From: a virus
IMG/VR virus record: IMGVR_UViG_3300009509_000001
Location: 1 to 64,000 of that record
Direction: 5' to 3' (one strand)
DNA length: 64,000 bases
The notes beneath the pieces are model-generated. The model saw only the letters and a list, made by a program, of their open reading frames with translations. It made no database searches and was not told the DNA's origin. A program made the position numbers and the translations under genes. Shown piece after piece: positions 14,638 to 64,000 of this stretch (its first letter is position 1; each line of letters opens with the position of its first letter).

Positions 14638-15014
14638 AGCTCAACCCTCCTTATTCCGGCGAGCAGGAACCCGTCCGTGTCGTTGGGGTCTTTCGCATCG
14701 CCTTCATGCAGCGCCCGCTTCATGTAGAGCAGGTACCCTCGGCACATTTTCATCCGGTCGGCGGTGGCGCTGTAGTTGTCGCGTGCCAGCGACATGAGCA
14801 GATTTCCCTGACGGCTTGCCGCCTGGATCTCCCGCCGGTTGTTGTTGTACGCGGCGTCGGCCATGGCATCGTTGGTCTCGTTGATAACCTTGTCGACCTG
14901 ATCGATGCCGAGGGCGTCCGGCGGCCTGAAGCCGTGATCCGGCTCAGTGCCGGTCATGGACTCGACCCGCTTGTCGAACGTCTGTTTCAGGCTGTCGTAT
15001 ACTGGCTCAAGCAT
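14634..15014 (-). CDS. Hypothetical baseplate-region protein (126 aa)
   Basis: Tiles between sigma and gp25-like genes with overlapping junctions. Confidence 0.55.
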   Translation of the reverse strand: MLEPVYDSLKQTFDKRVESMTGTEPDHGFRPPDALGIDQVDKVINETNDAMADAAYNNNRREIQAASRQGNLLMSLARDNYSATADRMKMCRGYLLYMKRALHEGDAKDPNDTDGFLLAGIRRVEL

Positions 15015-15771
15015 TCAATTCCTGCCCTTCTTCGATCTTGGCGACGATCTTGTTGATGCGCTTGCTCACGGCCGGCGCGCTTATCTTCAGTCGTTGTGCG
15101 ATCTCGGCCTTCGGTATCTTCTCGACACCGCCGTAACCGGTACTCCACTCGTAAACCTTCTTGTCGATGGGATCGAGCTCTTCGTAAACATAATCCAGCC
15201 ACATGTCCTTGAGCTCACGGCCCTGCGACATCGGATCGCCCTTCTCGCTTTCGGTCGACGATTCCGTACGGCTGTTGCCGTATCTGTTGATGCGGTCGAT
15301 CTGGCGTATGCTGAAACCGCTGAGATCGGCAAGCTCCCGGAGGTTGGGTTCGCGGTCGTACTCCGCTTTGAACTCGTCGGCCTTCCGCTGCAGGTGCTGC
15401 TTCTCGGCGTGGACGTTTTCCGGGATGTGCATGACGCTCATGCGTTCCTGCCGGACCTGGGTAAGCTTGTGCAGACTGTTGCTGATGTGGGTGCGGATTC
15501 CGGCACCCTTCTGAGGGTCGTAGTTCTCGGCGGCCCGCAGCGCTATGAGCTGTGCCTGGGTTCGGTACTCATCCGGGTCCTTGCCGCCGAAGTTCTGCAG
15601 GGCCTTGTCGATCTCCGGCTGAAGCGCATTGAGGAACGGTTCGGCATTCTGCGGCGTCGGGGCACTCCGCCAGGTTTCGTAATAGTTGTCGACGTCGGTC
15701 TTGCTCGCAGGCGTCGGGCCGGCGGCCTTCACGTTGTCATTAGTTGCCCAGGGGCTGTTAGTCTTGTTCAT
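15007..15771 (-). CDS. Sigma-70-family RNA polymerase sigma factor (group 3-like; regions 2, 3, 4; 254 aa)
   Basis: Region 2 LIALRAAENYDPQKGAGIRTHI, region 3 AEYDREPNLRELADLSGFS, region 4 HTH PKAEIAQRLKISAPAVSKRINKI. Confidence 0.88.
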   Translation of the reverse strand: MNKTNSPWATNDNVKAAGPTPASKTDVDNYYETWRSAPTPQNAEPFLNALQPEIDKALQNFGGKDPDEYRTQAQLIALRAAENYDPQKGAGIRTHISNSLHKLTQVRQERMSVMHIPENVHAEKQHLQRKADEFKAEYDREPNLRELADLSGFSIRQIDRINRYGNSRTESSTESEKGDPMSQGRELKDMWLDYVYEELDPIDKKVYEWSTGYGGVEKIPKAEIAQRLKISAPAVSKRINKIVAKIEEGQELNA

Positions 15772-47768: not shown

Positions 47769-48167
47769 TTAGCTAAGAGTTGTATTCCAGCTTTGTTCCC
47801 ATGCTTCGTCCGAAGCTGCCTTATTCTGCCCACCGGCGGCATCAGCCGCCTGTTTGGCGAGCGGAGCGGGCGTGCCAAGCGGACGAGGTGCGGAGTCGCT
47901 TTCGCGCTTCCCAAACTCGTCTGCGAGACGCTGCAGACTCAGCAATGCTTGATCCGGATTTTCCGGATACGACTGCACCAGCGTTTCAGCGGCCTCCTTT
48001 GACAGGAGATTACGAGCAACCAGCTTTTTGGCCGTTTGCTTGAGGACATCCTCACTGAAAGCGGGCTTTGCACTGGCCACTGCGGCCTTCTTGCGAAGGT
48101 CTGCGATGACTTCCTGCGACACTTCAACGTAGTCCACTACGTTTTCGAGCAGTTCCCGCGTGTTCAT
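47769..48167 (-). CDS. Small helical head-assembly (scaffold-like) protein (132 aa)
   Basis: Between scaffold and decoration; three KxA motifs. Confidence 0.55.
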   Translation of the reverse strand: MNTRELLENVVDYVEVSQEVIADLRKKAAVASAKPAFSEDVLKQTAKKLVARNLLSKEAAETLVQSYPENPDQALLSLQRLADEFGKRESDSAPRPLGTPAPLAKQAADAAGGQNKAASDEAWEQSWNTTLS

Positions 48168-48179
48168 GATGATGTCTCC

Positions 48180-49226: not shown

Positions 49227-49267
49227 TGTCACGGGTCCTTTTTGGTTTCCGTTTGGATTGCACCTAC

Positions 49268-50710: not shown

Positions 50711-52386
50711 TTGGTGCCTCCGCTTACCATGTAATCGAGGAGATTCTTGTACTCCTCGTCGGTCATGTTTCCGCCTTCACGCAGCTTCTTGATGGCCGTG
50801 ATGGCCTTGCGGCCGACCTTCTTGGTTTTGCTGCGCGCGGCCTTGACGTCCTTCTCGGACTGGGTACGACGCTCGGCGCCCTTTTCCTTGAGATCCATTT
50901 CGCGTTCCTTGACGGAGAGTTCGCGCTCTTTGAGAGCGTCGGACTTGGCGTCGCGGCGCGGGGCCTTCTTTTCACCGCCGCCGGCTTTCGCCGGAGCGCC
51001 CTTAGCCCCTGCGGACCCGTCGAGAATGTCGCCGACGCGCCCGGCATCGAGACCGGCCTTGTACTTGGCGGCCCGGTCCTCAAGCTGCTTGGCAGCCAGA
51101 TCGACGTCGGTTATCCGCCCCTTGGCGATCTCCTTGCCGATGGCCTGGAGTTCCTTGATGGTGGCCGGATCGGAAACGTTGCCCTGGACGAGCTGCTGGC
51201 GTACCAGCGACTTCAGCCACGAGCTGTATTTCGGATCCAACAGGTCGGGCATTGCGCCGACGACGTTGTTGTATGCCTCCATCGTTTCGTCGATGGGATA
51301 ATCTTTGGTAAAATCGTCGGCCGCGACGTCCACGAACGCCTGCGTGGCCCGGATCTGGTTGAGGCGGTTGCGCAGAGTGGCGTCAAACGCCTCCTCTTCG
51401 CCGACCTTCTTTTCCTTGGTCAGCTGCTCGTACATCGGGGTCTTGGCGAAGTTGATGACCGGGTCGAGAAGACGCTGGGCGCTTCCCTTGACCGCCGCCC
51501 CGACTCCGCGTGCGGCACCGCCGACGTTGCCCAGGGACGTCATTCCCCGAACACCTTCGCCTGCCTCTTCCTGAAACTGCTCTGCTACGCCCAGCTCGGG
51601 AAGCGTCAGCGCCACTTTCTTGAGCAGACGGTTGAAATGGTTGTATGACCGGGCCTCGTCGATTGCGATGCTTACGCTGGTATAGGGTTCCTCCAGCGGG
51701 AAGATCGCGGCGGCCGCAGTCTTGTGGAGTTTGAATTCCGTGGACGTGTGCGCTCCGACCAGCTTCATCAGCCGGACGCCGTCGTCGCCGTAACGGTTGA
51801 CGGCTAAGCGTGCGACCTTCATCATCGGCTTGCTGGGCATGCGCCGGATGACGCTGCAGATACGATGGATGGCGTCCTCGCTTGCCTGCTTGTGCATCGA
51901 GATCTTTTCGCGGAATTTGTCGATGCTGCGGCTCAGGTTGTCGGTCGCGGTCATGATTTGTCGGTCCAGGCAACGGACGTCGACCGGCTTCGGCTCGGCA
52001 CCCAGATCGAAGGCGACCTTGCTCAGGCCGTGCACCCTCAACGTGTTCTCCTGGAGAGCCGGTATCGGCAGGTCGAGTGCGGCGGAAGCCGCCTTCTTGT
52101 GGTATCCGTAGATAATGTTGATGACGATGTTGGGATCGATGAGCGGAATGTCTTCGGCGCGGTCTTCACTCGCGCGCTTCTGGAGCGTATGAATGCTCTT
52201 CGACTTGTTGTAGGCTTCGCATGCGCGCCGGACGAGTTCCGGGGTCATGCCGTCGAACTGCGTGAAAGTTTCCGCTGCCACTTTGTTCAGGTCGGCGTCA
52301 GGCGTGAATCTCGTTTTGTCGATTATCTGCTCGATGGCCGACATGACCGACTGTTCAAGGGCTTTGTCAAGTTTCTTGAAACTCAT
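50707..52386 (-). CDS. Internal head protein candidate (559 aa, eight KxA motifs)
   Basis: ORF track; motif density; basic low-complexity C-terminus. Confidence 0.55.
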   Translation of the reverse strand: MSFKKLDKALEQSVMSAIEQIIDKTRFTPDADLNKVAAETFTQFDGMTPELVRRACEAYNKSKSIHTLQKRASEDRAEDIPLIDPNIVINIIYGYHKKAASAALDLPIPALQENTLRVHGLSKVAFDLGAEPKPVDVRCLDRQIMTATDNLSRSIDKFREKISMHKQASEDAIHRICSVIRRMPSKPMMKVARLAVNRYGDDGVRLMKLVGAHTSTEFKLHKTAAAAIFPLEEPYTSVSIAIDEARSYNHFNRLLKKVALTLPELGVAEQFQEEAGEGVRGMTSLGNVGGAARGVGAAVKGSAQRLLDPVINFAKTPMYEQLTKEKKVGEEEAFDATLRNRLNQIRATQAFVDVAADDFTKDYPIDETMEAYNNVVGAMPDLLDPKYSSWLKSLVRQQLVQGNVSDPATIKELQAIGKEIAKGRITDVDLAAKQLEDRAAKYKAGLDAGRVGDILDGSAGAKGAPAKAGGGEKKAPRRDAKSDALKERELSVKEREMDLKEKGAERRTQSEKDVKAARSKTKKVGRKAITAIKKLREGGNMTDEEYKNLLDYMVSGGTK

Positions 52387-52389
52387 GCC

Positions 52390-53220
52390 TTATACCTCAT
52401 CTTGAAATTTGTTAATAGCTATCATTTCATCTTCAAGCGTCATCGACTCGTCCGGACGTCGTATCGCGGACTCCAACGCGTCGAAAACTTCCGCCAGCAT
52501 GGCCCGATCATCATGAGTGTTGTCGTCATCGGGCCTTGTGGACTCCTTGTGCCACAGAGCCGTAAGGCTCGCTGCGGGAGTACCAGCACTATCTATTAAC
52601 TTAGCACCGGTATGGATAGATTTCAAAACTTCCTTGACGTGCGTGCTTATGCCGAGCCCCTGCATCCACTGGGCGAGCTCCGGCTCCAGGTGTTTTCCGT
52701 CTATCGCATACTTCGAAAATTTGTCTATTCCGCCGCCATAGGCGACGACCTTCCACATGTACGCCGTGTCGAACTTGTCCTTTCGAGTGATGCTCCTGTT
52801 CGGCACGAAAATGTTCTTGTGCACCCAGAACGGTTTGTCTCTGTCGGCCGCCACGTCGAAGAACAGGTGCTGGTACAGCTTTACCAGCCGAGGCGTAAGG
52901 AACCTGGACACGTACGCCTGGAAAAACTCGATGTCGGCGTCTTCGGCCAGCAGCCCGGCCTCCATGATGTCCCGGAACCCGCTGACGCTGTTGTCCCGGT
53001 AGATCTCCAGCGCGAGCACGAGCCCACGTATATGCCCGTTGTTGCGGAGCATGTCCTTATCCAGCGACTGGTTGTAGTACCGTACGATCAGCTCCTTCAA
53101 CCGCTTGACGCCGTCATCCGGGCACTGGCCGTAGACCGGGAGATTCGCTTTCTCCCGCTCCACTTCGCGCATGGCGATCTGAAACCGCCAGTCGGGTCTG
53201 TCTGTGAATGGACTATCCAA
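52390..53220 (-). CDS. Hypothetical helical protein (276 aa)
   Basis: Tiles with neighbours; no recognised motif. Confidence 0.6.
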   Translation of the reverse strand: MDSPFTDRPDWRFQIAMREVEREKANLPVYGQCPDDGVKRLKELIVRYYNQSLDKDMLRNNGHIRGLVLALEIYRDNSVSGFRDIMEAGLLAEDADIEFFQAYVSRFLTPRLVKLYQHLFFDVAADRDKPFWVHKNIFVPNRSITRKDKFDTAYMWKVVAYGGGIDKFSKYAIDGKHLEPELAQWMQGLGISTHVKEVLKSIHTGAKLIDSAGTPAASLTALWHKESTRPDDDNTHDDRAMLAEVFDALESAIRRPDESMTLEDEMIAINKFQDEV

Positions 53221-55408
53221 AGTTTTCCGTCAGCTCGTCTGCGAATAGGTTGGCGTCGCTTCCACTGGTCGACTTGTGCAGGAACAGCGTCAGGTCGCTG
53301 AGATTCTGGAAGTTGTCGCGGAGACTGTCTTCCAGCTCGCTCATCTTTTCCTGACCGTACTGATCCTTGAACTGGTTGTAGTGCCAGTAGAACATGAAGA
53401 GGATGCGGCCGATGCGGTCAAGCGCCAGCAGCAGATCCTGCATATAGTCCTCGACCATCCGGCTTGGGCTGCCGTTGGCGGCCAGCGCCTTCAGGACGCT
53501 GACGTCCATGACGTCCTTGACGCCTTTCTCACTGGCCTTGACGACCTTGTCGACATCGCCCTCGGCCATGGCCGGGTCGAGCGTCTCATTCTCTTCGAAC
53601 GGGGTCACGTCTTCATAGTAGACGCTCTTGACCTTTTCGTCGTCTTCACCGATCTGCGGAGCAGCGTACTTGACCAGGTAGTCGGTGCGGTCGGGCCGTC
53701 CGACGCTGGCCTGTTTGCTCAGCATCTGGCGGGCATCCGGGGCACTGATCTTGTGCTGTTTGATCAGCTTGAGCAGCGCCGCGTTCTTGGTGAGCATGCG
53801 CTCCTTGCCGAACTTGCTGTCCAGCGAGAAGCTCAGCCCATCGGTCTGAATGGTAAGGCCACGCCATCCGGCGGTCTTTATGATCTTGTGCTTGATGGTC
53901 TCGATGTCGCCGAACGCCATATCCATGTCGCAACATCCGCGCAGCGCCACGATCCGTGCGCCTTCGGGGATGTACAGGTGCGTTCCCTTGCGGCATACTT
54001 CACCAGGCTTACCGGTCAACTCGATGATGCCCTTCGTGTCCACCCAGTCATGGGTGTCGGTGTCGCATGGAAGCTTCACCTGGGCGATCTTGTTGCCGAT
54101 GATGGAGGAATCGTTGCCCGTGCGGAATTCCTGGTAATTGCCCTTGCTGTCGATGGCGATGCAGTTCTGCCATTCCCATCTCTTCAGCGTGTCGTCGCTT
54201 TCCGGCGATTCTTCCGCCGGGCCGTCGCTCTCGGCGTCGTCGAACTTGCGGAGCAGGTTCGTCGGCTTGATGCCGATGCCCATAAGGTCGGTCGCTTCCC
54301 GGGCCTCGAGTGTGCGGGCCAGCAAAGGCTGCTCGCACTTGACGGCCACGGAGGGCCGGTCGAGATCGATGACGACGCAGGTGAAAGCCTTGATGTCGAC
54401 GGTGTTGCCGCCGTCCGGGTGCTTCCAGCTACCCTTCTTCTGCGGCTGCACGATGACGTAGCATTTGCGGAAGCTGCCGTCGGCCAACAGGATCTCGTAG
54501 TACCCGTTCTTGACCGGCGTGCTGAGACTGCCGCTGTCCTGCTTGTCGGTGAACACCGTGGACGTGTACTCGCGGTTGTCGACCACGTACAGGCCGTCGC
54601 GAAGCACCACTTCCTTAGCCTTGTCGTCCAGCTTCTGGACGGCTTCGGCGTCATCGATGCTGACGACCTGGAGATCGCTCTGATCGACCGTGTCCTCGAC
54701 CTTCAGCGAGTAACTGCCGTCCTGCACTTCGGTACCGTCGGCGGCAGGGGTCTGATCCTGCACGGCGGCCGCGATCTTGCGAATCGACTCGGGCTCGTAG
54801 TGGGCCAGCACGGCATTCGCGAAATCCGGATTGCCGTTCATGGTGCGCATGAAACTGACGAACGCGTGCTTCCCGAGGCGTGGAATCCACGTGCGCAAGT
54901 CGAATGCATTGTAATCGTAACGATCGTAAACGGTGAGCATGTCTTCGACGTCCACGTCGCGCAGCAGCGAATTGTCACTGGCGCCCTTGAACATGATGCT
55001 GTTGCTCTTGCCGTCGCGGCGGAGGCTGACGCCGTCGGCACGTTTCGGGTTGCTCTTCGGCATGTCGCCGGCGGGTTCGCCGAGCACGGTGGCCCGGTTC
55101 GACTTGATGTAGCTTACCCAGCTGTCCTTGGCCGGTACGAACTGGCTCTTCTCCGGCAGATACATCATATCGTATCCACGGATGCGTCCGTTCAGGAGGA
55201 AGCACGGCACATAGATCCACTGGTCGCCGATCTTGTAGACCATGACGCCCATTCCGCGGGTGCCTTCGTCATCGCGTTCGATCAGCTGGAAACCGACCTT
55301 GTATTCACTGAGAGACGGGAGCCGCTGTGTGATCTCCGCCTCGGCTACGTTCGACAACTTGATTTCGAAGTCATCTGCCGATGCATTCTTTCTGAGTACG
55401 TTTATCAT
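53213..55408 (-). CDS. Large internal head protein candidate (731 aa, five KxA motifs)
   Basis: ORF track; motif occurrences LRKNAS, IRKIAA, IIKTAG, LSKQAS, LVKYAA. Confidence 0.55.
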   Translation of the reverse strand: MINVLRKNASADDFEIKLSNVAEAEITQRLPSLSEYKVGFQLIERDDEGTRGMGVMVYKIGDQWIYVPCFLLNGRIRGYDMMYLPEKSQFVPAKDSWVSYIKSNRATVLGEPAGDMPKSNPKRADGVSLRRDGKSNSIMFKGASDNSLLRDVDVEDMLTVYDRYDYNAFDLRTWIPRLGKHAFVSFMRTMNGNPDFANAVLAHYEPESIRKIAAAVQDQTPAADGTEVQDGSYSLKVEDTVDQSDLQVVSIDDAEAVQKLDDKAKEVVLRDGLYVVDNREYTSTVFTDKQDSGSLSTPVKNGYYEILLADGSFRKCYVIVQPQKKGSWKHPDGGNTVDIKAFTCVVIDLDRPSVAVKCEQPLLARTLEAREATDLMGIGIKPTNLLRKFDDAESDGPAEESPESDDTLKRWEWQNCIAIDSKGNYQEFRTGNDSSIIGNKIAQVKLPCDTDTHDWVDTKGIIELTGKPGEVCRKGTHLYIPEGARIVALRGCCDMDMAFGDIETIKHKIIKTAGWRGLTIQTDGLSFSLDSKFGKERMLTKNAALLKLIKQHKISAPDARQMLSKQASVGRPDRTDYLVKYAAPQIGEDDEKVKSVYYEDVTPFEENETLDPAMAEGDVDKVVKASEKGVKDVMDVSVLKALAANGSPSRMVEDYMQDLLLALDRIGRILFMFYWHYNQFKDQYGQEKMSELEDSLRDNFQNLSDLTLFLHKSTSGSDANLFADELTENFG

Positions 55409-55409
55409 G

Positions 55410-57233
55410 TCAGACCTCGTTTATGTTTACTAGCCTCGGGAAATAGGAAATGCTGTCCTTCTCGCTGACAGCTCCTCTGGTGGCGGCTCTGGTCACCGTT
55501 CGTTTAAGATTTTCACCCGCCAACTGCGTCATGAGATCGGGGTCCGTGCTCATGAAGTCCTGCGCACGGATGATCTCCGGTTCGAAAGGTGGCGGGCTCG
55601 CATGCGTCATAACCTGTTTTACACCGGCTGCCTGAAGCTTTCTGATCACGCGCGGCGTTATGCGCGTTCCAATGGTGTAATGCAGGTATGGCTGTTCTAA
55701 GTATAACTTATTCGCCGTAGTGACCGTTTTCAACCCAGCCCCCTCACGCGGCGTCCAATCGGCGGCCAACGTGTTGTAGTTTATCACGTCGTCCGGAAGG
55801 TGGCCGTTGATTCCCTCCGGGTCGGTGATGCGCACCTTGTTGACGAATTCACGGGCAAGGTACTCGAGATTCCGACGGTCGGTTCCGCTGTTCGAATTCT
55901 TCAGCAGGCTGCGAAGATGATTCAGGAAGTATACCCGGCCTTCGCCGATTCCCTTGTGCTTCACGAGCTCGGCGGCGTTGAGCATGCCGTTGGTCATCAT
56001 GTCGCCGGCCTCCACCGTGTCACCCTGTTTTACCGTGATGTCGTAGCCTTCGGGCACATAGTGCTTCTCACTGCCGACCCACAGAAACGTCCCGCCCTGG
56101 GCGGCCTTGGCGACTCTGGCGACCTTTCCGTCCACCTGGGACAGTACTGCGGCGCCAGGAAATTCCTTGGGCACCTGAAAAAACTTGTTGACGGCCTTGA
56201 AGCCGCTCTCCTGCTTCTGCGTGCTGCCGATCTCCCCGCCGGCATGCTTCGAGCTGATGGCGCTCTGGGTAAGCGGCTCGATGAAACTTCTGGCGCCCGT
56301 AATCCCCACGGTGTCGCCGATGTCCGGCAACGTCCCGGTTTCGCGCACTCCCGCGCACTTGGCGCAGATGCCCTCTTTGGCTTTGCAGTTCAGGGCGCTT
56401 CGGCCCACGATCTTCTTATCCTTGATCAGCGCGGAGTTCTCGTCGTCGATGATCGTCCCTGCCGGAAGACCCGCGATCGGCTTGGCCAGCACGGTTCCGA
56501 TGTTGTCCGGATCGTCGCCGTCCAGCTCGAGGCCCTCGGTCGTTCCGCAATCCTCCGTGGTCACCACGTCGCGATGACTCACGTTGGTGAGTTGCTTTCC
56601 GAAGTAACCGCTGTCGGCCGTCGCGAACTGCACGTCCACGTAACCTTTGCGCCCGCCGTGACTGGCGGCCCAGTAGGACAGTGGGCTCACGCCCTCGGCG
56701 TAGCCCTCTAAGTTTGGATAAGGCACGGGCCTTCCCTTGGAGTCGGCGCTTATGAGGTTGCCGAGCAGCAGCTGACGCAGCTGAAAGGCTTTACCGCGGC
56801 TCCCGCTGTTGATCTGGAGTGCGAACGCGCCATTGCGGTCGCTGACCGCCTTCAACAGGTCGTCGTCGATCGTGGCGCTGAAGTCCTGGACCATTTTGAG
56901 GACGGCCTGCTCCTTCTGCTCTGGGCTCAGCAGCGGGCTGTCATACGTCTGGTCGACCTTTTCCTTCAAGGCGTCGCGCCGTTGTTTGATCTCCGGCGGG
57001 ATCTTGAAGTCTTCAAGGCTAAGCGAGGCTTCGCGACCGTACAGCGACGCCACGTTGATGCCGATCGTGTTCAGCTTCTGGAGCGACTCGACATACTTGT
57101 CGGGGTCTTCCTGGGCCATGCGGGTGAACAGCTTGCCGACGGCACGCTTGTCCAACGCTCCCTGGAAGTCCTTGTAGCCTTCCGGTAGTGCTTCCCTGAC
57201 CTTTTCACGGCCCAATGTGGTTACTGCGCTCAT
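55410..57233 (-). CDS. rpoC: Phage multi-subunit RNA polymerase, beta' C-terminal half (607 aa)
   Basis: TTLGR start; INSGSRG; bridge helix HGGRKGYVDVQFATADSGYFGKQL; Zn site EDCGT...NCKAKEGICAKC; trigger loop EPLTQSAISSKHAGG. Confidence 0.93.
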   Translation of the reverse strand: MSAVTTLGREKVREALPEGYKDFQGALDKRAVGKLFTRMAQEDPDKYVESLQKLNTIGINVASLYGREASLSLEDFKIPPEIKQRRDALKEKVDQTYDSPLLSPEQKEQAVLKMVQDFSATIDDDLLKAVSDRNGAFALQINSGSRGKAFQLRQLLLGNLISADSKGRPVPYPNLEGYAEGVSPLSYWAASHGGRKGYVDVQFATADSGYFGKQLTNVSHRDVVTTEDCGTTEGLELDGDDPDNIGTVLAKPIAGLPAGTIIDDENSALIKDKKIVGRSALNCKAKEGICAKCAGVRETGTLPDIGDTVGITGARSFIEPLTQSAISSKHAGGEIGSTQKQESGFKAVNKFFQVPKEFPGAAVLSQVDGKVARVAKAAQGGTFLWVGSEKHYVPEGYDITVKQGDTVEAGDMMTNGMLNAAELVKHKGIGEGRVYFLNHLRSLLKNSNSGTDRRNLEYLAREFVNKVRITDPEGINGHLPDDVINYNTLAADWTPREGAGLKTVTTANKLYLEQPYLHYTIGTRITPRVIRKLQAAGVKQVMTHASPPPFEPEIIRAQDFMSTDPDLMTQLAGENLKRTVTRAATRGAVSEKDSISYFPRLVNINEV

Positions 57234-57237
57234 TTAT

Positions 57238-57942
57238 CTACTTCAGGGGTTCGGGCACGCCACCTGCCGCCCATGATTTCGCGGATTCATGAAGACCAGC
57301 CGCAGCACCGCCGTAAAGCAACGTTCGAAGAGCCGTTGCGAGGGCGCCTTTGCCGGCGGTTTTCAACTTTGCACGCGTCGGGATGCCCGGCGCACTCTTT
57401 ATCTTTCCTGGGCTGACGTTCATCCCCTTCGGAGCATTTACTCCGATAGACATCTTCTTGGGCTTTCCAGCCTGGGCAGCCTCGAACTTGGCGAGTTCGC
57501 CTGCCTCGAGCTTGTTAAGATCGTACAAAGACTTCAAACCGCTCCCAATGCCAAAGACGGGTGCAGCGACTCCGGTGACCTTGGCTACGTTCCCGGTTGC
57601 GGCATCCGCAGCCGTCTCGAGAATCCCGCGATTGGCGAGTTTCTTCTTTTCGGCGAGAAGCTTGTCGTAATCTTCGTATTCCTTTTCCTTCTTCTTGCCC
57701 TGGGCCGACAGGTACGAGCCGACCCCGGCCCCGGCAGTGGCACCGAGGCCAGCGCCGAGTATGCCGGCACCCGCGCCCTTCAGTCCGAGCCCGTAACGCG
57801 TAAGCAGGTAGCCCATTCCGCCGCCGCCGAGAGTGGTCAATGCCAGAAGCATCGCACGTTGCTTGGATGCATCCTTGCTCGACGGCTTGGCGTCCTTCTT
57901 GTCTTCGTCGCCCGCTGTTTTGTAAAGTAGGTACTGTCGCAC
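57238..57942 (-). CDS. Glycine-zipper membrane-active protein, ejection-protein candidate (234 aa; GTG start 57942)
   Basis: SD AGGAGG 7 nt upstream; LLALTTLGGGGMGYLL...GAGAGILGAGLGATAGAGVG; N-terminal LYKTAG. Confidence 0.6.
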   Translation of the reverse strand: MRQYLLYKTAGDEDKKDAKPSSKDASKQRAMLLALTTLGGGGMGYLLTRYGLGLKGAGAGILGAGLGATAGAGVGSYLSAQGKKKEKEYEDYDKLLAEKKKLANRGILETAADAATGNVAKVTGVAAPVFGIGSGLKSLYDLNKLEAGELAKFEAAQAGKPKKMSIGVNAPKGMNVSPGKIKSAPGIPTRAKLKTAGKGALATALRTLLYGGAAAGLHESAKSWAAGGVPEPLK

Positions 57943-57953
57943 TGTCGGCCTCC

Positions 57954-58685
57954 TTATCGAGCCAGCTTGGTTTTGCTCCAATCGATGACGCTGGCCGTTT
58001 TCGGCAAGGTTTCACCTGGAGGGAGCCCGGCATCCATCTCTGAAAATCCAGGAGCTCCTGAAAGTTGGTCTGCAGCGAGGGCCGCTGCCGCATTGTCGAT
58101 TTCGGACGGTTCGGCCTGCGCCGGCGTCGGTTCGGTATCGCCGCCCATGCCGACGTCACCGGCCGGAAGCTGCACGCCCATGGCTGCAGCCAATGCCGAC
58201 AAGCGATCGTCCACGGCCTGCATTTTGGCCATGATGTCCTTGTTCGTGGCGCGGCCGGATTCTTCTTTCTCCTTGCCGCCGCTCACTTCCTGCAAAATCT
58301 GCTGAAGGTCTTCGAGATTGAGCTGAACGGGGGTTCCCGCCGCCGCTTCCATCTCTTCCATTCCGGGCTCCGGGGGCATTCCGCCGCCCATTGCCATTGC
58401 AGCCATCGGATCACCGCCCATAGCTGCCATCGGATCACCGCCCATTGCGACCGGGTCCATCGGCATTCCGCCGCCGCCCATTGCGGCCATCGGATCACCG
58501 CCCATAGCTGCCATCGGATCACCGCCAGGAGGCATGCCACCCATTGCGGCCATCGGGTCCATCGGCGGGGCACCACCACCCATGGCAGCAGCCTGAGCTT
58601 CTTGCGTTACGGGGTTGAAGGCGTTCTTTTTCAGCCCGTTTCTGGCCTCGGCTGCCTGTTTCTTCAATAGGTTAAGGTCAATCAT
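57954..58685 (-). CDS. Met/Gly/Pro-rich low-complexity internal protein (243 aa; ATG 58685)
   Basis: SD AGGAGG; MIDLNLLKKQAA...; GGDPMAAM repeats; LPKTAS near the C-terminus. Confidence 0.7.
   Translation of the reverse strand: MIDLNLLKKQAAEARNGLKKNAFNPVTQEAQAAAMGGGAPPMDPMAAMGGMPPGGDPMAAMGGDPMAAMGGGGMPMDPVAMGGDPMAAMGGDPMAAMAMGGGMPPEPGMEEMEAAAGTPVQLNLEDLQQILQEVSGGKEKEESGRATNKDIMAKMQAVDDRLSALAAAMGVQLPAGDVGMGGDTEPTPAQAEPSEIDNAAAALAADQLSGAPGFSEMDAGLPPGETLPKTASVIDWSKTKLAR
58371..58585 (-). repeat. Coding repeats GGDPMAAM
   Basis: gccatcggatcaccgcccat at 58402, 58426, 58486 and partial at 58510. Confidence 0.85.
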
Positions 58686-58704
58686 GATTCCTCCTGAGTT
58701 TCTA

Positions 58705-58714
58705 TTTAATATAG
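58705..58714 (-). promoter_or_regulatory. Candidate late-promoter element CTATATTAAA
   Basis: In the intergenic gap after the RNAP stop, 20 nt upstream of ATG 58685; identical to 28086-28095. Confidence 0.4.
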
Positions 58715-58716
58715 TC

Positions 58717-61700
58717 TTATGCCTTGCTTTTTTCCAATATGACGATCGGCGTGTCGATGTCGATCTCCCCGGCGTTGAACGCTTCCTGCGCTTCGCGCAT
58801 GGTTCTGAACGTACGCTTGGCCTGGCCCTTGCCCGGCCGCGTGGCCAGATACAGCCCCTGTACGAACTGCTGGCGCGGTACGTAGTGGGCCGTGAAGTCA
58901 CGCGGACTCAGGAGGTTAGCTTCGGGCGTCATCTTGGCCCTGGCCTCCTCGACCGCCTCTTTGCTGACGGGAGCGTAATAGGTCACGCTGTCTCCGTCGA
59001 AATCCATACCGTAAGGTTCGACGATGCTGGGGCTCACCTGCACCGACTTGCCTTTGACGAGCACCGGTTCGAACGCCATGACTCCGTACTTGTGCAGCGT
59101 CGGTGCCCGGTTCACGATGACCGGGCGTTCCTTGACCGCTTCGTACAGGAAGCTCTCGGCCTTCTGATCGCGATCCTTCACGCGCTTGATGGCGTCGGTC
59201 GGCGCATAACCGCTCTTCACCATGTTGCGGACGACGAACGGCTCGAAGACGTCCCAGGCATCCTTGATCGGAATGCCGATCTTGTTAAGGGGCATGGACG
59301 GGTTCGGCGTCACGACGCCGCTTCCGGCCAGGTTCATGGCCGTACCGAGCACGCGGCGGTGATAGCCACCGTACTTGGCGCTCCCCTTTCCGAGTGCCCA
59401 CTTGAGCAGGCCCTGGACGTTCTTTTCCTGGAGCTTGGCGTCGTCGGGATCATACATCCCGGTGAGTGCCTTGTAGGTGTTGTACATCTGTTTGCGGGCG
59501 CCCTTTATACTGCTGTCGGGCAGTCGCTCGCGAGCCGAACGCATGTCGTCGCGGGCGAACACCAGGCTGCGGTACAGCATATTGGCATCGGCCGTGATGT
59601 TCGTGCCGTCGAGCTGCGTAACCGGGCGGAACTTCGGCGGGAGCACCGGGACACGCTCCATCATGAAGTCTTTCGGGTGAACGTCCTGTTCCTCCATGCT
59701 CTTCAGGAACCGGTAACGCTTGAGCGCCTTGTCCTTCTTGCTGGGCGTACTTCCCTTCAGATCCTCCATGGCGCCCTTGACCGCGGCCTTCATGTCGATC
59801 TTGGCCAGCGCCGCCTGTATGGCGGCTCCGCCGGTCTTGTCGCCGATGGCCTCTTCGCCGCTCATGACGGCGTTGAATTTCTTCTGCGTCATTCCGAGTA
59901 CGCTGGCGAGCGCAGGCTCCATGACCGGGTTCGGTAGTGGCTCGTCGAGCTGAATGTAACCCCAGCCGGTGCCGTCGTCTCCGAAAATCTTCGGATCGAA
60001 CAGGCCCCCGTCGATCGGCTTCATGGTCTTCTGGTCGAAGGTGCGGGCGACCCCGAGCTCATGGCCTTTGGCCAGATCCTTGGCCTGGCGGTCAGTCATT
60101 CCGAAAAAGTTGATGCGGTCGGGCTGCTCATCGACGTTGATGCCGGCTCCCTTCAGATGCTCGTAGAACTTCTTGTTGACGATGGGGGTGCTCGGCATCT
60201 TGGGCACGCGGCCCATGCGGAAGTCACGCCAGAACTCGTCGTTGGCCTGGCCGCGGATGAGCTTCGCGTCCTTGAGTACCTTCATGGCTCCGTGGCTCAC
60301 CAGCGCCGACGTGTGAAGTCCCCCGATGAACTTGGAACCATGCTTGCCGCCTCTGAGCGGCGTGTCCTCACCGGAGGACGGGCCGACTCCACGGCCTTTG
60401 CCTTTGTCCTCGGCCATATGCATCAGTCTGTAGTAGAAGGCTTCGCCTGTGAGGACTTCGGGTATCTTGCGGCCGGTCACGGGGTCATATAGATCTTCGT
60501 TGGCGCTCAGGCCGGCCTGCTTCAGTTTTTCCTCGTACTTATCAATCATCTTTTCGTCGAATCCTTCGACGATTTCGGGCTTCCCGGTCTTCCTGGCCAG
60601 CTTTCCGGCAAGCGCTTCGGTGACCTGCATCGGATTGACGCGGCTGATTATGCCGAGCGGGCTCAGCAGCACATCGTATGGGTTGCCGTCCTTGTCCAGC
60701 GGCATCTCGTTGTCGGGAAGAATGTTCACCACGCCCTTGGCTGCATATCGGCTGCTCATTTTGTCGCCGTTGCGCATGGGCACGTTGGCCCTGGTGTAAA
60801 CCGTGGCGTGCTTGTCGCCTTTGTCGGCTTCCACGACCTTGCCTTCGTAATCGTGATCCCAGGTTTCGACCACGGCCGTGCGGGTCTTGCGTCCCAGGCT
60901 GCCGGGCTTGGCCTCGTTGTGCCTGACGGCCACGATCATCGGGTCGCCCTTGCGCAACACGGTGCCGGGCTTCACGATCCCCTGGTCGGTAAGCGTGTCC
61001 ATCTGGTCCTTGGTGAATCGGCCGGAGAACTTGCCGATAAATTCCTTCTTGTCAAAAGCGGTGTTGGTGGAGACGGGTACGCGCTGCTTGTACATCTTCT
61101 CGGCGGCGAGCTTCTTGGCTGCCGATTCGGAGATCGTGATCGCGTCTTCGTATGCGTGACCCTTCCAGTTCATGTAGGCTACGCGCAGATTGCGGCCCTG
61201 GGCTGCGACGCCCTTGTCGTCCGTGTAGTTGGTCGTGGCCAGAACCTGGTTGGGTTTGACCTCGTCGCCGACCTTAACCTGCGGAATGCTGCGCAGGTAC
61301 CCCTTCTGGTTGAACGGGTGATTGTTGTACAGATCGTATGTCTCGGTGCCTTCGGGTCCGCGGATGGTGATGCTGTCGGCGTCCATGGCTGCAACAGTCC
61401 CCTTGATCGTGGACTTCCGCACACCCATCATCTGCCCGATGTCCTCTTCGGCCGTGCTGGTGCCCTGGCGACTGCGTACGAGTGGAGCTTCACGCTGCGC
61501 AAGCGGCATCGCCTGGACGCCGTACTTGCCACCCATCTGCAGGCGGTTGGACATGATCCCGCTCTTCCCGGGGACGCTGTTGGAGCCCTTGCTGAACATG
61601 TTGGAGTCGTCCATGATGTAGTAGTCCACGTCCTGCTTGGGGACGATCTTCACGCCCTTGCTTCCGTGGATGGCCGGAACGAACTTTCCCTTGGCATCGA

Positions 61701-63075
61701 ACTCCTTCTTGGTCGCCACGCGGCTGCGGGCGGCCGTCAGACTGTCGACCCATTCTTCCTTGCCGGTCTTGGCATTGAACATTTTGGTGTAAAGCCGGCC
61801 ATCGTCGCCCTTTCGGACACCGTTGGCCAGGTACAGATCCAAACCGACGCGTAGAGATTCCACGCTGCGGACGGGGTCGACGAAGCCGGCAAAGCTGTCC
61901 TGTACCGCCCGAGTCTCGCTGGGAGCCGTGCGTACACCGCTGATCCCACCTTCGCCAATGCGGCTGATCTTCGTGCTCAGGTCGATGGCTGAAAAGGGAC
62001 TGCTCCCATCGATATAACTCGCATGACGTGACTCGTTGAATATTGCATCGACGTGTTTATTCATGGGAGCAGTCGGTATATCATCGAAATTACCGCGACG
62101 CGATATGCGCCACAGCAGATTCCGCGCTATGCCCCCACCGTCACGCACGATGCGCTCGGCGAAATAATCGGCGGGTCCGTCCACCTTCTGAAATTCAAGG
62201 CTGTCTCGATAATCCTCCCCGGCTTCTCCCCGGCTAAGCTTCAGGACCTTGCCGGCCGATTCCAGAAGAGTCTCGGGCGTGAGCCTCGGGTGTGGGCGTC
62301 CAAGCGTAATCTCGGTGGATACCGGGTCCAGCTCTGTACGCTGGAGCTTCTCGATGAGCTCGTCGTATTGGGCGGACTTGTCCTGCGCCGTTTTCGGTAT
62401 TCCACCCGTAAACCGCTGCGTCGGCTGCTGGATGTCGCTGGCACGTCGGTTGACGTCCAGGAGCTCGGCGCCCCACTGTTGTTTGATCTGATCGTCGGTC
62501 ATCCCCTGCCGTTTCAGGATCGTGTAAAGTTTGTAACCCCTTGTTCCCTGCTTGAGCCGGAATATGCCGGTCTTCGGGTCGAGCTCGATCTTGAACTGGC
62601 CGCCGGTACCCTGCTTCGGGTTTACGTGGGCCTCGAAAAAGCCGTTCTCCTTCTTGCGCGTGTATACGCCCGGCGTCAGTCTGAACATGTAGTTGATCGA
62701 CTGTTCGCTGCCGTTGCGGATGAAGGTTCCCCGTTCCGTCATCCACGGCACGTTCATGAGCACGCGCGGATTGCTCGTGGTGGTTTCCCCGGTCTCCTTG
62801 TTCGTTAGCTTCCAGCGACCGCGCAGCTTGGCGGTCACGCTGCCGTTCTGAAGCACGGCCTGCTTCTCGTCCCGGAGCCTGGGTTTGTATTCGTCGTAAT
62901 CGACACCGTCGACATCGAGCACGAAGCGTTCGTTCTCCAGCGGGAAACGCTGTCTGAACGCGCTTTTCGTGTTGTCGAGGATCCGTTGGCGCACCTGGGC
63001 GTAGTCCGTCGGGCTGTATGGCTTCGACTTTGCACCGACAACCGGATCCAGTAGACGGGTCTGGAAGTCCTGCAT
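58717..63075 (-). CDS. rpoBC: Phage multi-subunit RNA polymerase: complete beta (~982 aa) fused to beta' N-terminal half (~470 aa), 1452 aa
   Basis: Beta motifs PWMTERGTFIRNG, HAYEDAI, GDKMSSRYAAKG, ISRVNP, RLMHMAEDK. Junction near 60130 (AGINVD/EQPDRI). Beta' motifs PVLPPKFRP, NRAPTLH, catalytic YGMDFDGD (58990-59013). Confidence 0.95.
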   Translation of the reverse strand: MQDFQTRLLDPVVGAKSKPYSPTDYAQVRQRILDNTKSAFRQRFPLENERFVLDVDGVDYDEYKPRLRDEKQAVLQNGSVTAKLRGRWKLTNKETGETTTSNPRVLMNVPWMTERGTFIRNGSEQSINYMFRLTPGVYTRKKENGFFEAHVNPKQGTGGQFKIELDPKTGIFRLKQGTRGYKLYTILKRQGMTDDQIKQQWGAELLDVNRRASDIQQPTQRFTGGIPKTAQDKSAQYDELIEKLQRTELDPVSTEITLGRPHPRLTPETLLESAGKVLKLSRGEAGEDYRDSLEFQKVDGPADYFAERIVRDGGGIARNLLWRISRRGNFDDIPTAPMNKHVDAIFNESRHASYIDGSSPFSAIDLSTKISRIGEGGISGVRTAPSETRAVQDSFAGFVDPVRSVESLRVGLDLYLANGVRKGDDGRLYTKMFNAKTGKEEWVDSLTAARSRVATKKEFDAKGKFVPAIHGSKGVKIVPKQDVDYYIMDDSNMFSKGSNSVPGKSGIMSNRLQMGGKYGVQAMPLAQREAPLVRSRQGTSTAEEDIGQMMGVRKSTIKGTVAAMDADSITIRGPEGTETYDLYNNHPFNQKGYLRSIPQVKVGDEVKPNQVLATTNYTDDKGVAAQGRNLRVAYMNWKGHAYEDAITISESAAKKLAAEKMYKQRVPVSTNTAFDKKEFIGKFSGRFTKDQMDTLTDQGIVKPGTVLRKGDPMIVAVRHNEAKPGSLGRKTRTAVVETWDHDYEGKVVEADKGDKHATVYTRANVPMRNGDKMSSRYAAKGVVNILPDNEMPLDKDGNPYDVLLSPLGIISRVNPMQVTEALAGKLARKTGKPEIVEGFDEKMIDKYEEKLKQAGLSANEDLYDPVTGRKIPEVLTGEAFYYRLMHMAEDKGKGRGVGPSSGEDTPLRGGKHGSKFIGGLHTSALVSHGAMKVLKDAKLIRGQANDEFWRDFRMGRVPKMPSTPIVNKKFYEHLKGAGINVDEQPDRINFFGMTDRQAKDLAKGHELGVARTFDQKTMKPIDGGLFDPKIFGDDGTGWGYIQLDEPLPNPVMEPALASVLGMTQKKFNAVMSGEEAIGDKTGGAAIQAALAKIDMKAAVKGAMEDLKGSTPSKKDKALKRYRFLKSMEEQDVHPKDFMMERVPVLPPKFRPVTQLDGTNITADANMLYRSLVFARDDMRSARERLPDSSIKGARKQMYNTYKALTGMYDPDDAKLQEKNVQGLLKWALGKGSAKYGGYHRRVLGTAMNLAGSGVVTPNPSMPLNKIGIPIKDAWDVFEPFVVRNMVKSGYAPTDAIKRVKDRDQKAESFLYEAVKERPVIVNRAPTLHKYGVMAFEPVLVKGKSVQVSPSIVEPYGMDFDGDSVTYYAPVSKEAVEEARAKMTPEANLLSPRDFTAHYVPRQQFVQGLYLATRPGKGQAKRTFRTMREAQEAFNAGEIDIDTPIVILEKSKA

Positions 63076-63076
63076 A

Positions 63077-64000
63077 CTACACCACCGCTACGTTGCGAGC
63101 CAACGTGTCCGTCGGGTCGATGATCTGGTCCTCGAGAGCTCCGGCACTCGCACCCTGGTCGATGAGATTGACGCTGCGTGGCCGGACCTTCTTTTTCTTG
63201 TTTATATGCGCGTCGAGCTTGGCCTTTATGCGCGGGTCGATAGCGCCGATGAGTACCGGCGGACGCTCCTGCAAGGCCATGCGCTCGGCCGCCTTTTCAG
63301 CCGCCTTTATGCGCTGCCGGTTGGGATCGCGCTCGTCGGCCCACTGCTTGGTAAGCACGGCGCCGCCGGCGAAAGCCGTCACGCCCAGCAACGCCAATGC
63401 GGCCTGGAGCGATCCCATGGTAGATGACTGTCCCGGGTCCTTGATGCCGAGGATGAGGCGCTGGGCAAACGTCGGGCGCTGGCGATCTTCGGCTTCCTTC
63501 TCGATCAGGTCCCGGGTGATCCCGGCGGCCTGCTCGGCCCGTTCCTTACCGTAGTCGCGGAGCGACGGGTCCGGGCTGATGACCGGCATTCCGGCCTGTA
63601 CGGACGCTTCGAGCCTGCGGTTGCCCTTCTGGGCCTCCTGCTTGCGCTCGAGCGCGCTGAGAAGATACTTGATCCCGAAGGCGCCGCCGCCGTAGAGCCC
63701 TGCCATGAGCATGGCTTTCGTCAGCATCTTCTGATCGAAGGTCGCATCTTTTCCGGCGGCCCGCATGAAGCCTGGCACCGGAGTGTCTTCGACGCCGAAC
63801 GGAAGAGCGGCCGCCTTCACGTAATCGCCAATTCCGGCCGTTTTGCGAACTGTACTCATAAGCTCGAGATTGACCTTGCCGAGCTTGTTCATATTCTCTT
63901 CAATGCGTTTCTGCCGCTCACGCTTCGCACGTATATCGGCGAGCTTGTTGGCCAGGGTAAAGCCACCGTAGCTGCTGATTGCCATGGCCGCGATCGGAAG
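63077..64000 (-). CDS. Membrane-active internal protein candidate, 5'-truncated (>=307 aa)
   Basis: Frame stays open upstream of ATG 63985 to the window edge (LPIAAMAISS...); hydrophobic segments AMLMAGLYGGGAFGIKYLL and AALALLGVTAFAGGAVL; VRKTAG, YVKAAA, IEKEAE motifs. Confidence 0.6.
   Translation of the reverse strand, partial: LPIAAMAISSYGGFTLANKLADIRAKRERQKRIEENMNKLGKVNLELMSTVRKTAGIGDYVKAAALPFGVEDTPVPGFMRAAGKDATFDQKMLTKAMLMAGLYGGGAFGIKYLLSALERKQEAQKGNRRLEASVQAGMPVISPDPSLRDYGKERAEQAAGITRDLIEKEAEDRQRPTFAQRLILGIKDPGQSSTMGSLQAALALLGVTAFAGGAVLTKQWADERDPNRQRIKAAEKAAERMALQERPPVLIGAIDPRIKAKLDAHINKKKKVRPRSVNLIDQGASAGALEDQIIDPTDTLARNVAVV

What the first reader, a model, noticed from the sequence alone, without database searches (positions are those of the whole stretch)
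55410..63075. RNA polymerase with relocated subunit boundaries: beta fused to beta'-N, beta'-C separate and two genes away
Seen: one 1452-aa chain runs from beta N-terminal motifs through the beta C-terminus (AGINVD, ~60130) directly into beta' and ends ~90 aa after DFDGD. The rest of beta' starts at TTLGR in a separate 607-aa gene. Both double-psi barrels and all catalytic residues are thus in a single chain, while bridge helix and trigger loop are supplied in trans. Established: full beta-beta' fusions occur in Helicobacter and Wolbachia; cyanobacteria split beta' nearby but just after the TTxGR motif; archaea split it much later. Inference: an independent fusion-plus-split that makes the mobile catalytic elements a separable, potentially regulatory subunit.
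Basis: partly seen in the sequence, partly recalled or inferred. Interest (0 to 1): 0.88.

Follow-up and report, generated by a model that had tools for sequence, protein, structure and literature searches.

The report
Phage RNA polymerase, rearranged subunit boundaries
A complete 195-kb phage from marine sediment encodes its own bacterial-type RNA polymerase as two unusual chains (all of beta fused to the first half of beta', and the second half of beta' as a separate gene). The layout is real and shared by hundreds of uncultured and a few cultured phages. It is probably carried inside the virus particle, and I found no description of it in the papers I could search.

Summary
Window 58717-63075(-) is one 1452-aa ORF holding a complete beta, joined with almost no linker to beta' up to E. 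coli residue ~556. Window 55410-57233(-) is a 607-aa ORF that starts four residues before TTLGR (E. coli beta' 572-576) and carries the bridge helix, trigger loop and second zinc site. Two small genes lie between them.

It is not an artefact. The junction is identical in contigs from an independent study. All 80 related IMG/VR loci examined, and Salmonella phage Arash and Vibrio phage D69, show the same layout.

The window is a complete 194.6-kb phage with one RNAP set, no alpha or omega, and a sigma-like gene. In Arash, both chains and the homologous sigma are among the most abundant virion proteins.

A sister clade encodes the whole enzyme as one ~2060-aa beta::beta' chain. The beta-beta' fusion is therefore shared, and the break in beta' most likely arose once.

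First-reader notes of this scan report the same layout in two other genomes. I rate it a new variant of a known kind (phage multisubunit RNAP). I found no description of it in the searchable literature.

The parts
58717..63075 (-). Gene for the 1452-aa beta::beta'N chain (P0001). It holds all of beta and beta' up to E. coli residue ~556, and contains no cysteine.
60118..63075 (-). Beta part (residues 1-986). Active-site lysines K772 and K780 correspond to E. coli K1065 and K1073. The rifampicin pocket is altered (H526 to L) and the flap tip is shortened.
58717..60117 (-). Beta' N-terminal part (residues 987-1452) plus the stop codon. The zinc-binding domain is deleted. The clamp helices are residues 1155-1210, the motif GMDFDGD is 1356-1362, and the chain ends just after the conserved IDIDTPI strand.
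57954..58685 (-). Intervening gene 1, ~243 aa. It has an N-terminal LLKKQAA leader and Pro/Met/Ala/Gly-rich DPMAAMGG repeats. This 'family A' gene is found between the RNAP genes in 56 of 61 related loci.
57238..57981 (-). Intervening gene 2, 247 aa, Gly/Ala/Lys-rich with an LYKTAG leader motif. It has no family match and is present only in close relatives.
55410..57233 (-). Gene for the 607-aa beta'C chain (P0002). It carries TTLGR at residues 5-9, the bridge helix, the trigger loop, and the four zinc ligands C229, C283, C290 and C293.
15007..15771 (-). Sigma-70-like factor of 254 aa, homologous to the virion-detected Arash gp10. It is the probable initiation factor of this polymerase.

Best explanation
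The two genes encode the two-chain catalytic core of the phage's only RNA polymerase, a bacterial-type multisubunit enzyme.

Chain 1 (beta::beta'N) carries both double-psi beta-barrels, the Mg-binding Asp triad, the beta lysines and the clamp helices. Chain 2 (beta'C) carries the bridge helix, the trigger loop, the second zinc site and the rest of the clamp and jaw. The two chains must assemble to form an active site cleft.

Shown:
- The layout is real, under purifying selection and clade-wide.
- The beta-beta' link is shared with a sister clade of single-chain (~2060 aa) enzymes.
- The break in beta' defines one monophyletic clade.

Inferred:
- The order of events was separate beta and beta', then a full beta::beta' fusion, then one fission at the surface loop beta' 557-571.
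- The covalent beta-beta' link stands in for the alpha-dimer assembly platform, because the genome has no alpha or omega.
- The enzyme, together with a phage sigma-like factor, is packed into the capsid and ejected with the DNA. It would then transcribe early genes without the host polymerase, and probably insensitively to rifampicin.
For: Reality and conservation:
- ORFs and domains are as described.
- 179 protein clusters span the junction and carry both PF00562 and PF00623.
- 512 IMG/VR stretches encode a relative. All 80 loci kept carry the junction in one frame, and 60 have beta'C downstream starting at query residue 1-6.
- The top 150 cluster representatives of beta'C all begin at the same N-terminus, and none is long enough to be a full fusion.
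- D1358/D1360/D1362 and K772/K780 are invariant.
- Independent contigs match with no differences.

Cultured members: Arash gp206 (1525 aa) with gp216 (606 aa), and Vibrio D69 (1527 and 609 aa).

Sister clade: L088 holds a single 2464-aa ORF, and more than 100 clusters of ~2050-2130 aa carry PF00562, PF00623 and PF04998 together.

Trees on the beta+beta'N columns, rooted on Salmonella and a Firmicute RpoB+RpoC: the split clade gets 97 (FastTree) and 99 (IQ-TREE SH-aLRT), the full clade gets 100 in both, and one change of state is needed.

Genome content:
- There is one RNAP set in a complete 194,576-bp genome with terminal repeats.
- No alpha or omega was found, while the control genomes all gave matches.

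Virion packaging:
- In the Arash virion proteome, gp206 is the most-detected protein (3516 spectra, 100% coverage). gp216 gave 1210 spectra and sigma gp10 reached 100% coverage (PMC10585845).
- The window's RNAP genes lie between a portal homologue (E 3e-64 to Arash gp204) and an MCP-like gene.
- They sit among genes enriched in a candidate maturation motif (39 occurrences against 11 +/- 3.3 in shuffles).
- P0001 and 13 relatives have 0 Cys, against a proteome frequency of 1.5%.

Sigma:
- The window ORF 15007-15771 matches phrog_351 at 2.6e-9.
- Its only matches in the phage database are the four phages with this RNAP layout, including Arash gp10.
- The complex prediction of sigma with the beta' clamp (residues 1075-1345) gave weak support: score 0.42 against a best control of 0.00. 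That mark was reached by 58 of 80 solved complexes and 2 of 110 mismatched pairs. At 0.60 or under, only 7 of those 80 reached it, as did both mismatches. The runs agree in at least 87% of contacts and the partner's pLDDT is at least 71. Sigma bound to the clamp helices is a solved textbook pair, so the pass may be from memory.
Against: - There are no expression, proteomic or biochemical data for this phage. Virion packaging rests on one proteome of a ~30%-identical relative, and its authors note that abundant enzymes might simply co-purify.
- The beta flap tip is shortened and the beta' zinc-binding domain is deleted. Both contact sigma or DNA in bacterial holoenzymes, so the way sigma is used may differ, or the sigma may serve the host RNAP.
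- The sigma complex prediction gave only weak support.
- Absence of alpha and omega by Pfam does not exclude use of the host subunits or an unrecognisable analogue.
- The direction of change (fission rather than re-fusion) rests on parsimony with only two bacterial outgroups. Other phage RNAP lineages were not in the tree.
- P0002 keeps four cysteines.
Confidence: 0.7

Rival explanations
1. Assembly or sequencing artefact: a missed stop at the beta/beta' junction, or a frameshift that falsely separates beta'C.
For: None was found. The only break in the Logan contigs (58431-58497) lies in the DPMAAMGG repeat of the intervening gene, not in an RNAP gene.
Against: Contigs from an independent study and from another sample are identical. 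All 80 loci examined, 179 protein clusters and two cultured phage lineages show the same layout. Two full-length genes with their own starts lie in the gap. No intron was found.
Confidence: 0.01
2. One reading: the 607-aa chain is a separable, regulatory subunit, supplied or withheld to switch the catalytic chain on and off.
For: The bridge helix and trigger loop really are on a separate polypeptide. The two genes are separated by other genes, so they could in principle be expressed differently.
Against: The chain is single-copy with no paralogue. Where found, it lies on the same strand in a tightly packed run of genes. Its abundance per residue in Arash virions is about equal to that of the fusion chain. 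The sister clade has it covalently attached. Cyanobacteria, plastids and phiKZ/AR9 phages carry comparable beta' breaks as constitutive subunits (PMC7824862; established knowledge).
Confidence: 0.08
3. The enzyme is an ordinary intracellular (non-virion) phage RNAP for middle or late genes. It assembles with host alpha/omega and perhaps host sigma, and its presence in Arash particles is carry-over.
For: No alpha, omega or clear region-2 sigma Pfam match is encoded. The Arash authors raise carry-over as a possibility. The core is much closer to bacterial RpoB/RpoC (27-30% identity, full length) than to phiKZ-type enzymes.
Against: In Arash it is the single most-detected protein, with the homologous sigma at 100% coverage. 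The genes lie in the head module next to the portal in both clades. The 1452-aa chain is cysteine-free, like the structural proteins and unlike the replication enzymes of the same genome.
Confidence: 0.2

Closest known systems
Salmonella phage Arash gp206 + gp216 (OQ632216; PMC10585845) and Vibrio phages D69/D181/D148
   Same: Same two-chain layout (1525 + 606 aa; 1527 + 609 aa), same position after the portal gene, and a homologous sigma (gp10). Identity to the window's chains is ~30%.
   Different: They are deep-branching members of the split clade. Arash has nine genes between the halves. They are annotated simply as 'beta' and 'beta'' or as 'hypothetical', and the fusion and split are not remarked on.
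Uncultured sister clade with single-chain beta::beta' (~2060 aa; e.g. IMGVR_UViG_3300022719_000152, P0275 to P0395)
   Same: The same beta-to-beta' junction, the same loss of the zinc-binding domain, a homologous portal immediately upstream, and phage contigs of 130-220 kb.
   Different: Beta' is unbroken. A ~20-30-aa linker carrying a hydrophobic-x-K-x-[AGS]-[AGS] motif sits where the window's genes are split.
Helicobacter / Wolbachia rpoB-rpoC fusion (established knowledge)
   Same: The beta C-terminus is joined to the beta' N-terminus in one ORF. This is sterically possible because the two termini are adjacent in the core enzyme.
   Different: Those are cellular enzymes with full-length beta', alpha2 and omega. 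Here beta' is broken, the zinc-binding domain is deleted and no alpha or omega is encoded.
Cyanobacterial/plastid RpoC1 (gamma) + RpoC2 split of beta'
   Same: The break falls between the catalytic barrel and the bridge-helix/trigger-loop half, within ~10-25 residues of the phage break (chain 8gzg_Z).
   Different: The cyanobacterial break lies after TTxGR and the phage break before it. Beta is a separate subunit there. RpoC2 carries a large trigger-loop insertion that P0002 lacks.
phiKZ / AR9 jumbo-phage multisubunit RNAPs (PMC7598289, PMC7824862)
   Same: They are phage-encoded two-barrel enzymes without alpha or omega. Beta' is split after the catalytic barrel, and one version is packed in the virion.
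   Different: Those phages split beta as well, encode two enzyme sets and have no sigma-70-type factor. Their sequences are far more divergent: 20-24% identity over partial matches.
mReC phages (Weinheimer & Aylward 2020, PMC7481178)
   Same: Uncultured tailed phages with RNAP close enough to the bacterial enzyme to align over its full length.
   Different: mReC entries list separate beta (~1000-1560 aa) and beta' (~900-1300 aa) proteins, and the paper describes no fusion or split. I could not test whether some mReC entries hide this layout.

Membership tests
Bacterial-type multisubunit (two-barrel) RNA polymerase core | Beta-type barrel with two active-site lysines (E. coli K1065, K1073). | tested here: met
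   K772 and K780 of P0001 align to them and are invariant in 16 and 22 relatives. Pfam Rpb2_6 matches at E 1.6e-49.
Bacterial-type multisubunit (two-barrel) RNA polymerase core | Beta'-type barrel with the DxDGD Mg-binding triad. | tested here: met
   GMDFDGD at residues 1356-1362, with the three Asp invariant. The N458 equivalent is G in the window and N or G in relatives.
Bacterial-type multisubunit (two-barrel) RNA polymerase core | Bridge helix and trigger loop. | tested here: met
   P0002 136-351 aligns with E. coli beta' 721-956. Pfam Rpb1_5 matches. The trigger-loop His is kept.
Bacterial-type multisubunit (two-barrel) RNA polymerase core | Alpha dimer and omega encoded alongside. | tested here: not met
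   PF01000, PF01193 and PF01192 gave no match at E<=1 in the complete genome, while all 14 control genomes matched.
Bacterial-type multisubunit (two-barrel) RNA polymerase core | Beta' N-terminal zinc-binding domain (four Cys). | tested here: not met
   The segment is deleted and P0001 has no cysteine.
Full beta::beta' fusion (Helicobacter/Wolbachia type) | Beta and the whole of beta' in one polypeptide. | tested here: not met
   The chain stops at beta' ~556 and the rest is a separate gene 1.5 kb downstream.
Cyanobacterial/plastid split beta' (RpoC1/RpoC2) | A break after the TTxGR motif, with beta as a separate subunit. | tested here: not met
   The break is before TTLGR, and beta is fused to the N-terminal half.
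phiKZ/AR9-type jumbo-phage RNAP | Beta split into two or three chains, two paralogous enzyme sets, and no sigma-70-type factor. | tested here: not met
   Beta is intact, there is a single enzyme set, and a sigma-like ORF is present.
Virion-packaged RNA polymerase | The protein is physically present in purified particles and is ejected into the host. | not testable with these tools
   Shown only for the Arash orthologues by mass spectrometry. For this window the support is indirect: head-module position, cysteine-free chain, flanking motif-rich genes.
Sigma-70 family (window 15007-15771) | Regions 2, 3 and 4. | tested here: inconclusive
   phrog_351 matches at 2.6e-9. Pfam r3 and r4 score only below their cut-offs, and r2 was not detected. 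Relatives carry PF04539.

The most novel reading that the evidence does not exclude
The genetic split copies a proteolytic one. In the single-chain sister clade, 61 of 115 proteins carry a hydrophobic-x-K-x-[AGS]-[AGS] motif fixed 4-5 residues before TTxGR, where ~0.017 per window is expected. The same motif is enriched, several copies per protein, in the head-module genes that flank the window's RNAP genes.

If this motif is the prohead-protease site, the single-chain enzyme is cut during capsid maturation into the same two chains that the window encodes separately: the predicted new N-terminus falls within about one residue of P0002's. That would mean a break at this loop is needed for the packaged enzyme to be stored, ejected or activated. 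The enzyme would then be a capsid-matured, zymogen-like cellular-type RNA polymerase.
Probability: 0.25. Interest if true: 0.8.

Novelty: new variant of a known kind. Interest (0 to 1): 0.62.

Why it matters
- It defines a large, environmentally widespread phage lineage with at least three cultured members. Its RNA polymerase is close enough to the bacterial enzyme to align end to end, yet it is built differently. Beta and beta' are covalently joined and no alpha or omega is encoded. The zinc-binding domain is gone, the large chain has no cysteine, and a sigma-like factor appears to travel in the virion.
- It offers a natural experiment on what the alpha platform and subunit boundaries contribute to assembly of cellular-type RNAPs.
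- It offers a second, independent case, besides the phiKZ-like phages, of a multisubunit RNAP delivered by a capsid.
- Because Arash grows on a laboratory Salmonella strain, the predictions can be tested directly.
- Annotation pipelines currently label the chains simply 'beta' and 'beta'', or 'hypothetical'.

Tried and rejected
- RNA evidence: no RNA holder was listed among the public runs, so nothing can be said about expression.
- PHROGs 24349 and 25354, which looked like unsplit phage relatives, are probably built on bacterial rpoB/rpoC. The best matching 'phage' records are UNVERIFIED_ORG contigs or Salmonella genome contigs. I used them only as outgroups.
- The proteins of 2091-2136 aa looked like full fusions, but they are beta::beta'N chains with inteins. 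P0051 has no similarity to P0002.
- I considered that the break arose by insertion of a free-standing homing endonuclease, as first suggested by Vibrio phage D181. That interruption is in fact a group I intron (RF00028, 100.7 bits), so it is not a fission.
- The second sigma-r4-like match, at G000 108.6 kb, is an ordinary HTH regulator.
- The C-terminal extension of the beta'C relative tested (P0164) is not homologous to the 731-aa gene downstream of P0002. None of the five extended relatives scanned has a Pfam match in the extension.
- 'Family B', an ~80-aa gene found between the halves in 48 of 61 loci, is absent from this genome, Arash, D69 and L088.
- PHROG scans of the genes flanking L088 gave nothing.
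- Eight literature searches found no description of a beta::beta'N + beta'C or a single-chain bacterial-type RNAP in phages. Subscription journals are not covered.
- I did not fold the whole enzyme, because 2059 residues exceed the limits of the tools.


Full report
**1. What is there**

The window is the first 64 kb of a complete 194,576-bp virus record with direct terminal repeats. On the minus strand, 58717-63075 is an uninterrupted 1452-aa ORF (P0001) and 55410-57233 is a 607-aa ORF (P0002).

Pfam finds Rpb2 domain 6, Rpb1 domain 1 and Rpb1 domain 2 in P0001, and Rpb1 domain 5 in P0002. Against solved structures, P0001 56-983 aligns with an entire cyanobacterial beta. P0001 1075-1436 aligns with E. 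coli beta' 174-540, and P0002 136-351 with E. coli beta' 721-956.

An alignment with Salmonella RpoB and RpoC gives exact landmarks:
- Beta ends at residue 986 (…GAGINVDEQPD) and beta' starts at residue 987, so there is effectively no linker.
- The beta' zinc-binding domain is deleted.
- The clamp helices are residues 1155-1210.
- The Mg triad is D1358/D1360/D1362.
- The chain ends opposite beta' E556.
- P0002 has four residues and then TTLGR, which corresponds to beta' 572-576.
- Only a 15-residue surface loop is missing between the two chains.

The beta lysines K1065 and K1073 (K772 and K780 in P0001) and the Asp triad are invariant across relatives.

**2. It is not an artefact**

Contigs of four public runs were laid on 57000-61000.
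- The likely source sample covers everything with no differences.
- A 612-nt contig from a different study bridges the beta/beta' junction with no differences.
- A contig from another sample bridges the stop codon.
- The one contig break falls in the low-complexity repeat of an intervening gene.

No intron lies in 55000-63500.

Conservation is stronger evidence than reads.
- 179 protein clusters at 90% identity span the junction and carry both beta and beta' Pfam domains.
- 512 IMG/VR stretches encode a relative. In all 80 loci kept, one reading frame crosses the junction.
- In 60 of these 80 loci the beta'C gene lies downstream on the same strand. It starts at the same residue and is separated by 0.86-5.3 kb, never adjacent. 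In most of the other 20 the fetched DNA ended within 6 kb.
- The 150 best cluster representatives of beta'C, out of 1.84 billion proteins, all begin at this N-terminus.

**3. Cultured members and what is known about them**

Salmonella phage Arash (gp206, 1525 aa; gp216, 606 aa) and Vibrio phages D69, D181 and D148 have the same layout at ~30% identity.

The Arash paper (PMC10585845) calls the two proteins beta and beta' and does not mention the fusion. Its virion proteome shows gp206 as the most-detected protein (3516 spectra, 100% coverage). gp216 gave 1210 spectra and a sigma factor, gp10, reached 100% coverage. Per residue the two RNAP chains are about equally abundant.

The window's ORF 15007-15771(-) matches a phage sigma family (phrog_351, 2.6e-9). 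Its only homologues in the phage database are Arash gp10 and the Vibrio phages, which are exactly the phages with this RNAP layout. It has 45 metagenomic relatives, many of them carrying Sigma70 region 3.

**4. Genome context**

The genome holds one RNAP set and no detectable alpha or omega.

The RNAP genes lie between a portal homologue at G000 68365-70224 (E 3e-64 to Arash gp204) and an MCP-like gene at 46244-47212. The same portal-then-RNAP order holds in the sister clade.

P0001 has no cysteine in 1452 residues, and neither do 13 relatives. P0002 has only the four ligands of the second zinc site. The crude proteome average is 1.5%, with structural genes low and replication genes high.

The genes on both sides of the RNAP genes are rich in a hydrophobic-x-K-x-A-[A/S] motif, with 39 occurrences against 11 +/- 3.3 in shuffles. 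Other first-reader notes of this scan had flagged this motif as a possible prohead-protease code. I confirm the enrichment, not the function.

Together with the Arash proteome, these points make a virion-packaged enzyme the best reading. It remains an inference for this phage.

**5. Evolution of the layout**

One of the 80 loci, L088, has a single 2464-aa ORF in which beta, all of beta' and an intein are continuous. A search with its join region found more than 100 clusters of ~2050-2130 aa holding beta, the beta' barrel and Rpb1 domain 5 in one chain, on contigs of up to 220 kb. None is from a cultured phage in the August 2025 phage collection.

I built trees on the beta+beta'N columns only, so the trait itself is excluded, and rooted them with Salmonella and a Firmicute RpoB+RpoC.
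- The 'split' clade is supported at 97 (FastTree) and 99 (IQ-TREE SH-aLRT).
- The 'full' clade is supported at 100 in both.
- The two are reciprocally monophyletic sisters.

The beta-beta' fusion is therefore shared by both clades. With unbroken beta' in the outgroups, the most parsimonious history is a fusion followed by a single fission. The caveats are that only two outgroups were used and that other phage RNAP lineages are absent from the tree.

The split chains always end 3-6 residues after a conserved IDIDTPI strand. The full-length forms continue with a 20-30-aa linker.

**6. How it most likely works**

Chain 1 supplies both barrels and all catalytic side chains. Chain 2 supplies the mobile elements and completes the clamp.

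Comparable breaks in beta' are tolerated as constitutive subunit boundaries in cyanobacteria, plastids and the phiKZ/AR9 phages (established knowledge). The beta C-terminus and the beta' N-terminus are neighbours in the core enzyme, as the natural Helicobacter fusion shows.

I infer that the covalent tie replaces the alpha platform. I also infer that the sigma-like factor provides promoter recognition. The complex prediction of sigma with the clamp gave weak support only: score 0.42 against a best control of 0.00. That mark was reached by 58 of 80 solved complexes and 2 of 110 mismatches, but at 0.60 or under by only 7 of those 80 and by both mismatches. Contact agreement was at least 87% and partner pLDDT at least 71. 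This is a textbook pair, so the pass may be from memory.

The shortened flap tip and missing zinc-binding domain mean the holoenzyme cannot be a simple copy of the bacterial one.

The rifampicin pocket is altered (H526 to L), which predicts insensitivity to the drug.

**7. The regulatory-subunit idea**

Nothing supports it. The short chain is single-copy, co-oriented and tightly packed with the other genes, about equimolar in Arash virions, and covalently attached in the sister clade.

**8. A more novel possibility**

In 61 of 115 full-length proteins the K-x-A-type motif sits 4-5 residues before TTxGR, where 0.017 per window is expected. If it is a maturation-protease site, the single chain is cut where the window's genes are split. 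This is untested.

**9. Literature**

The mReC paper lists separate beta and beta' proteins and describes no fusion. The jumbo-phage overviews describe only the phiKZ/AR9 type. Further searches found nothing.

First-reader notes of this scan report the same layout in two other genomes.

**Verdict**

This is a real, conserved and so far undescribed variant of phage multisubunit RNAP. It is interesting and testable, but it is not a new kind of system.

Noticed in passing
L009 4934-5214 (Vibrio phage D181; also D148): The beta::beta'N gene is interrupted by a group I intron (RF00028, 100.7 bits, E 1.4e-26), followed by a homing-endonuclease ORF. The record annotates the two exons as separate hypothetical proteins.
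   Followed up: yes
relatives P0009-P0121, P0124-P0273, P0275: The RNAP genes of this phage lineage are crowded with inteins (LAGLIDADG, Intein_splicing and Hint Pfam hits). Examples are one directly after DFDGDS (P0051), one in beta, and others near beta'C residues ~200 and ~326, which includes the trigger loop. They lengthen chains to as much as 3.7 kaa.
   Followed up: partly
relatives P0164, P0171, P0187, P0219, P0234 and others: Many beta'C homologues carry C-terminal extensions of 400-1200 aa. The five scanned have no Pfam match there, and the one compared (P0164) shows no similarity to the gene downstream of P0002.
   Followed up: partly
window 57954-58685 (-); L013-L087: A Pro/Met/Ala/Gly-rich protein with a K-x-A leader ('family A') sits between the two RNAP genes in 56 of 61 loci. 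An ~80-aa protein ('family B') sits just before beta'C in 48 of 61 loci, but is absent from this genome, Arash and D69. Their roles are unknown; they may be capsid-internal proteins or RNAP partners.
   Followed up: partly
window 47769-55408, 57238-57981, 63077-64057; G000 97203-107566: The motif [LIVMFY]-x-K-x-A-[AS] is enriched about 3.5-fold over shuffles and occurs 3-7 times per protein in a block of head-module genes. This pattern resembles multiply cleaved internal or scaffold proteins.
   Followed up: partly
window 58717-63075: The chain has zero cysteines in 1452 residues, and so do 13 relatives. The same genome's replication-type genes have 1.2-5.9% Cys.
   Followed up: yes
window 58400-58520: Logan contigs of all four runs break or diverge in the DPMAAMGG repeat region. 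Repeat number may vary between strains.
   Followed up: no
phage database records OR844998, OR846602, CAKLQF020000005 and others: Several records filed as phages carry ordinary bacterial rpoB-rpoC operons (one is marked UNVERIFIED_ORG). PHROGs 24349 and 25354 appear to be built on such sequences.
   Followed up: partly
L007 (Rhizobium phage RHph_Y65, Kleczkowskaviridae): This phage encodes an unsplit 1127-aa beta' (EVB97_326). It represents another phage RNAP layout that was not placed in the tree.
   Followed up: no
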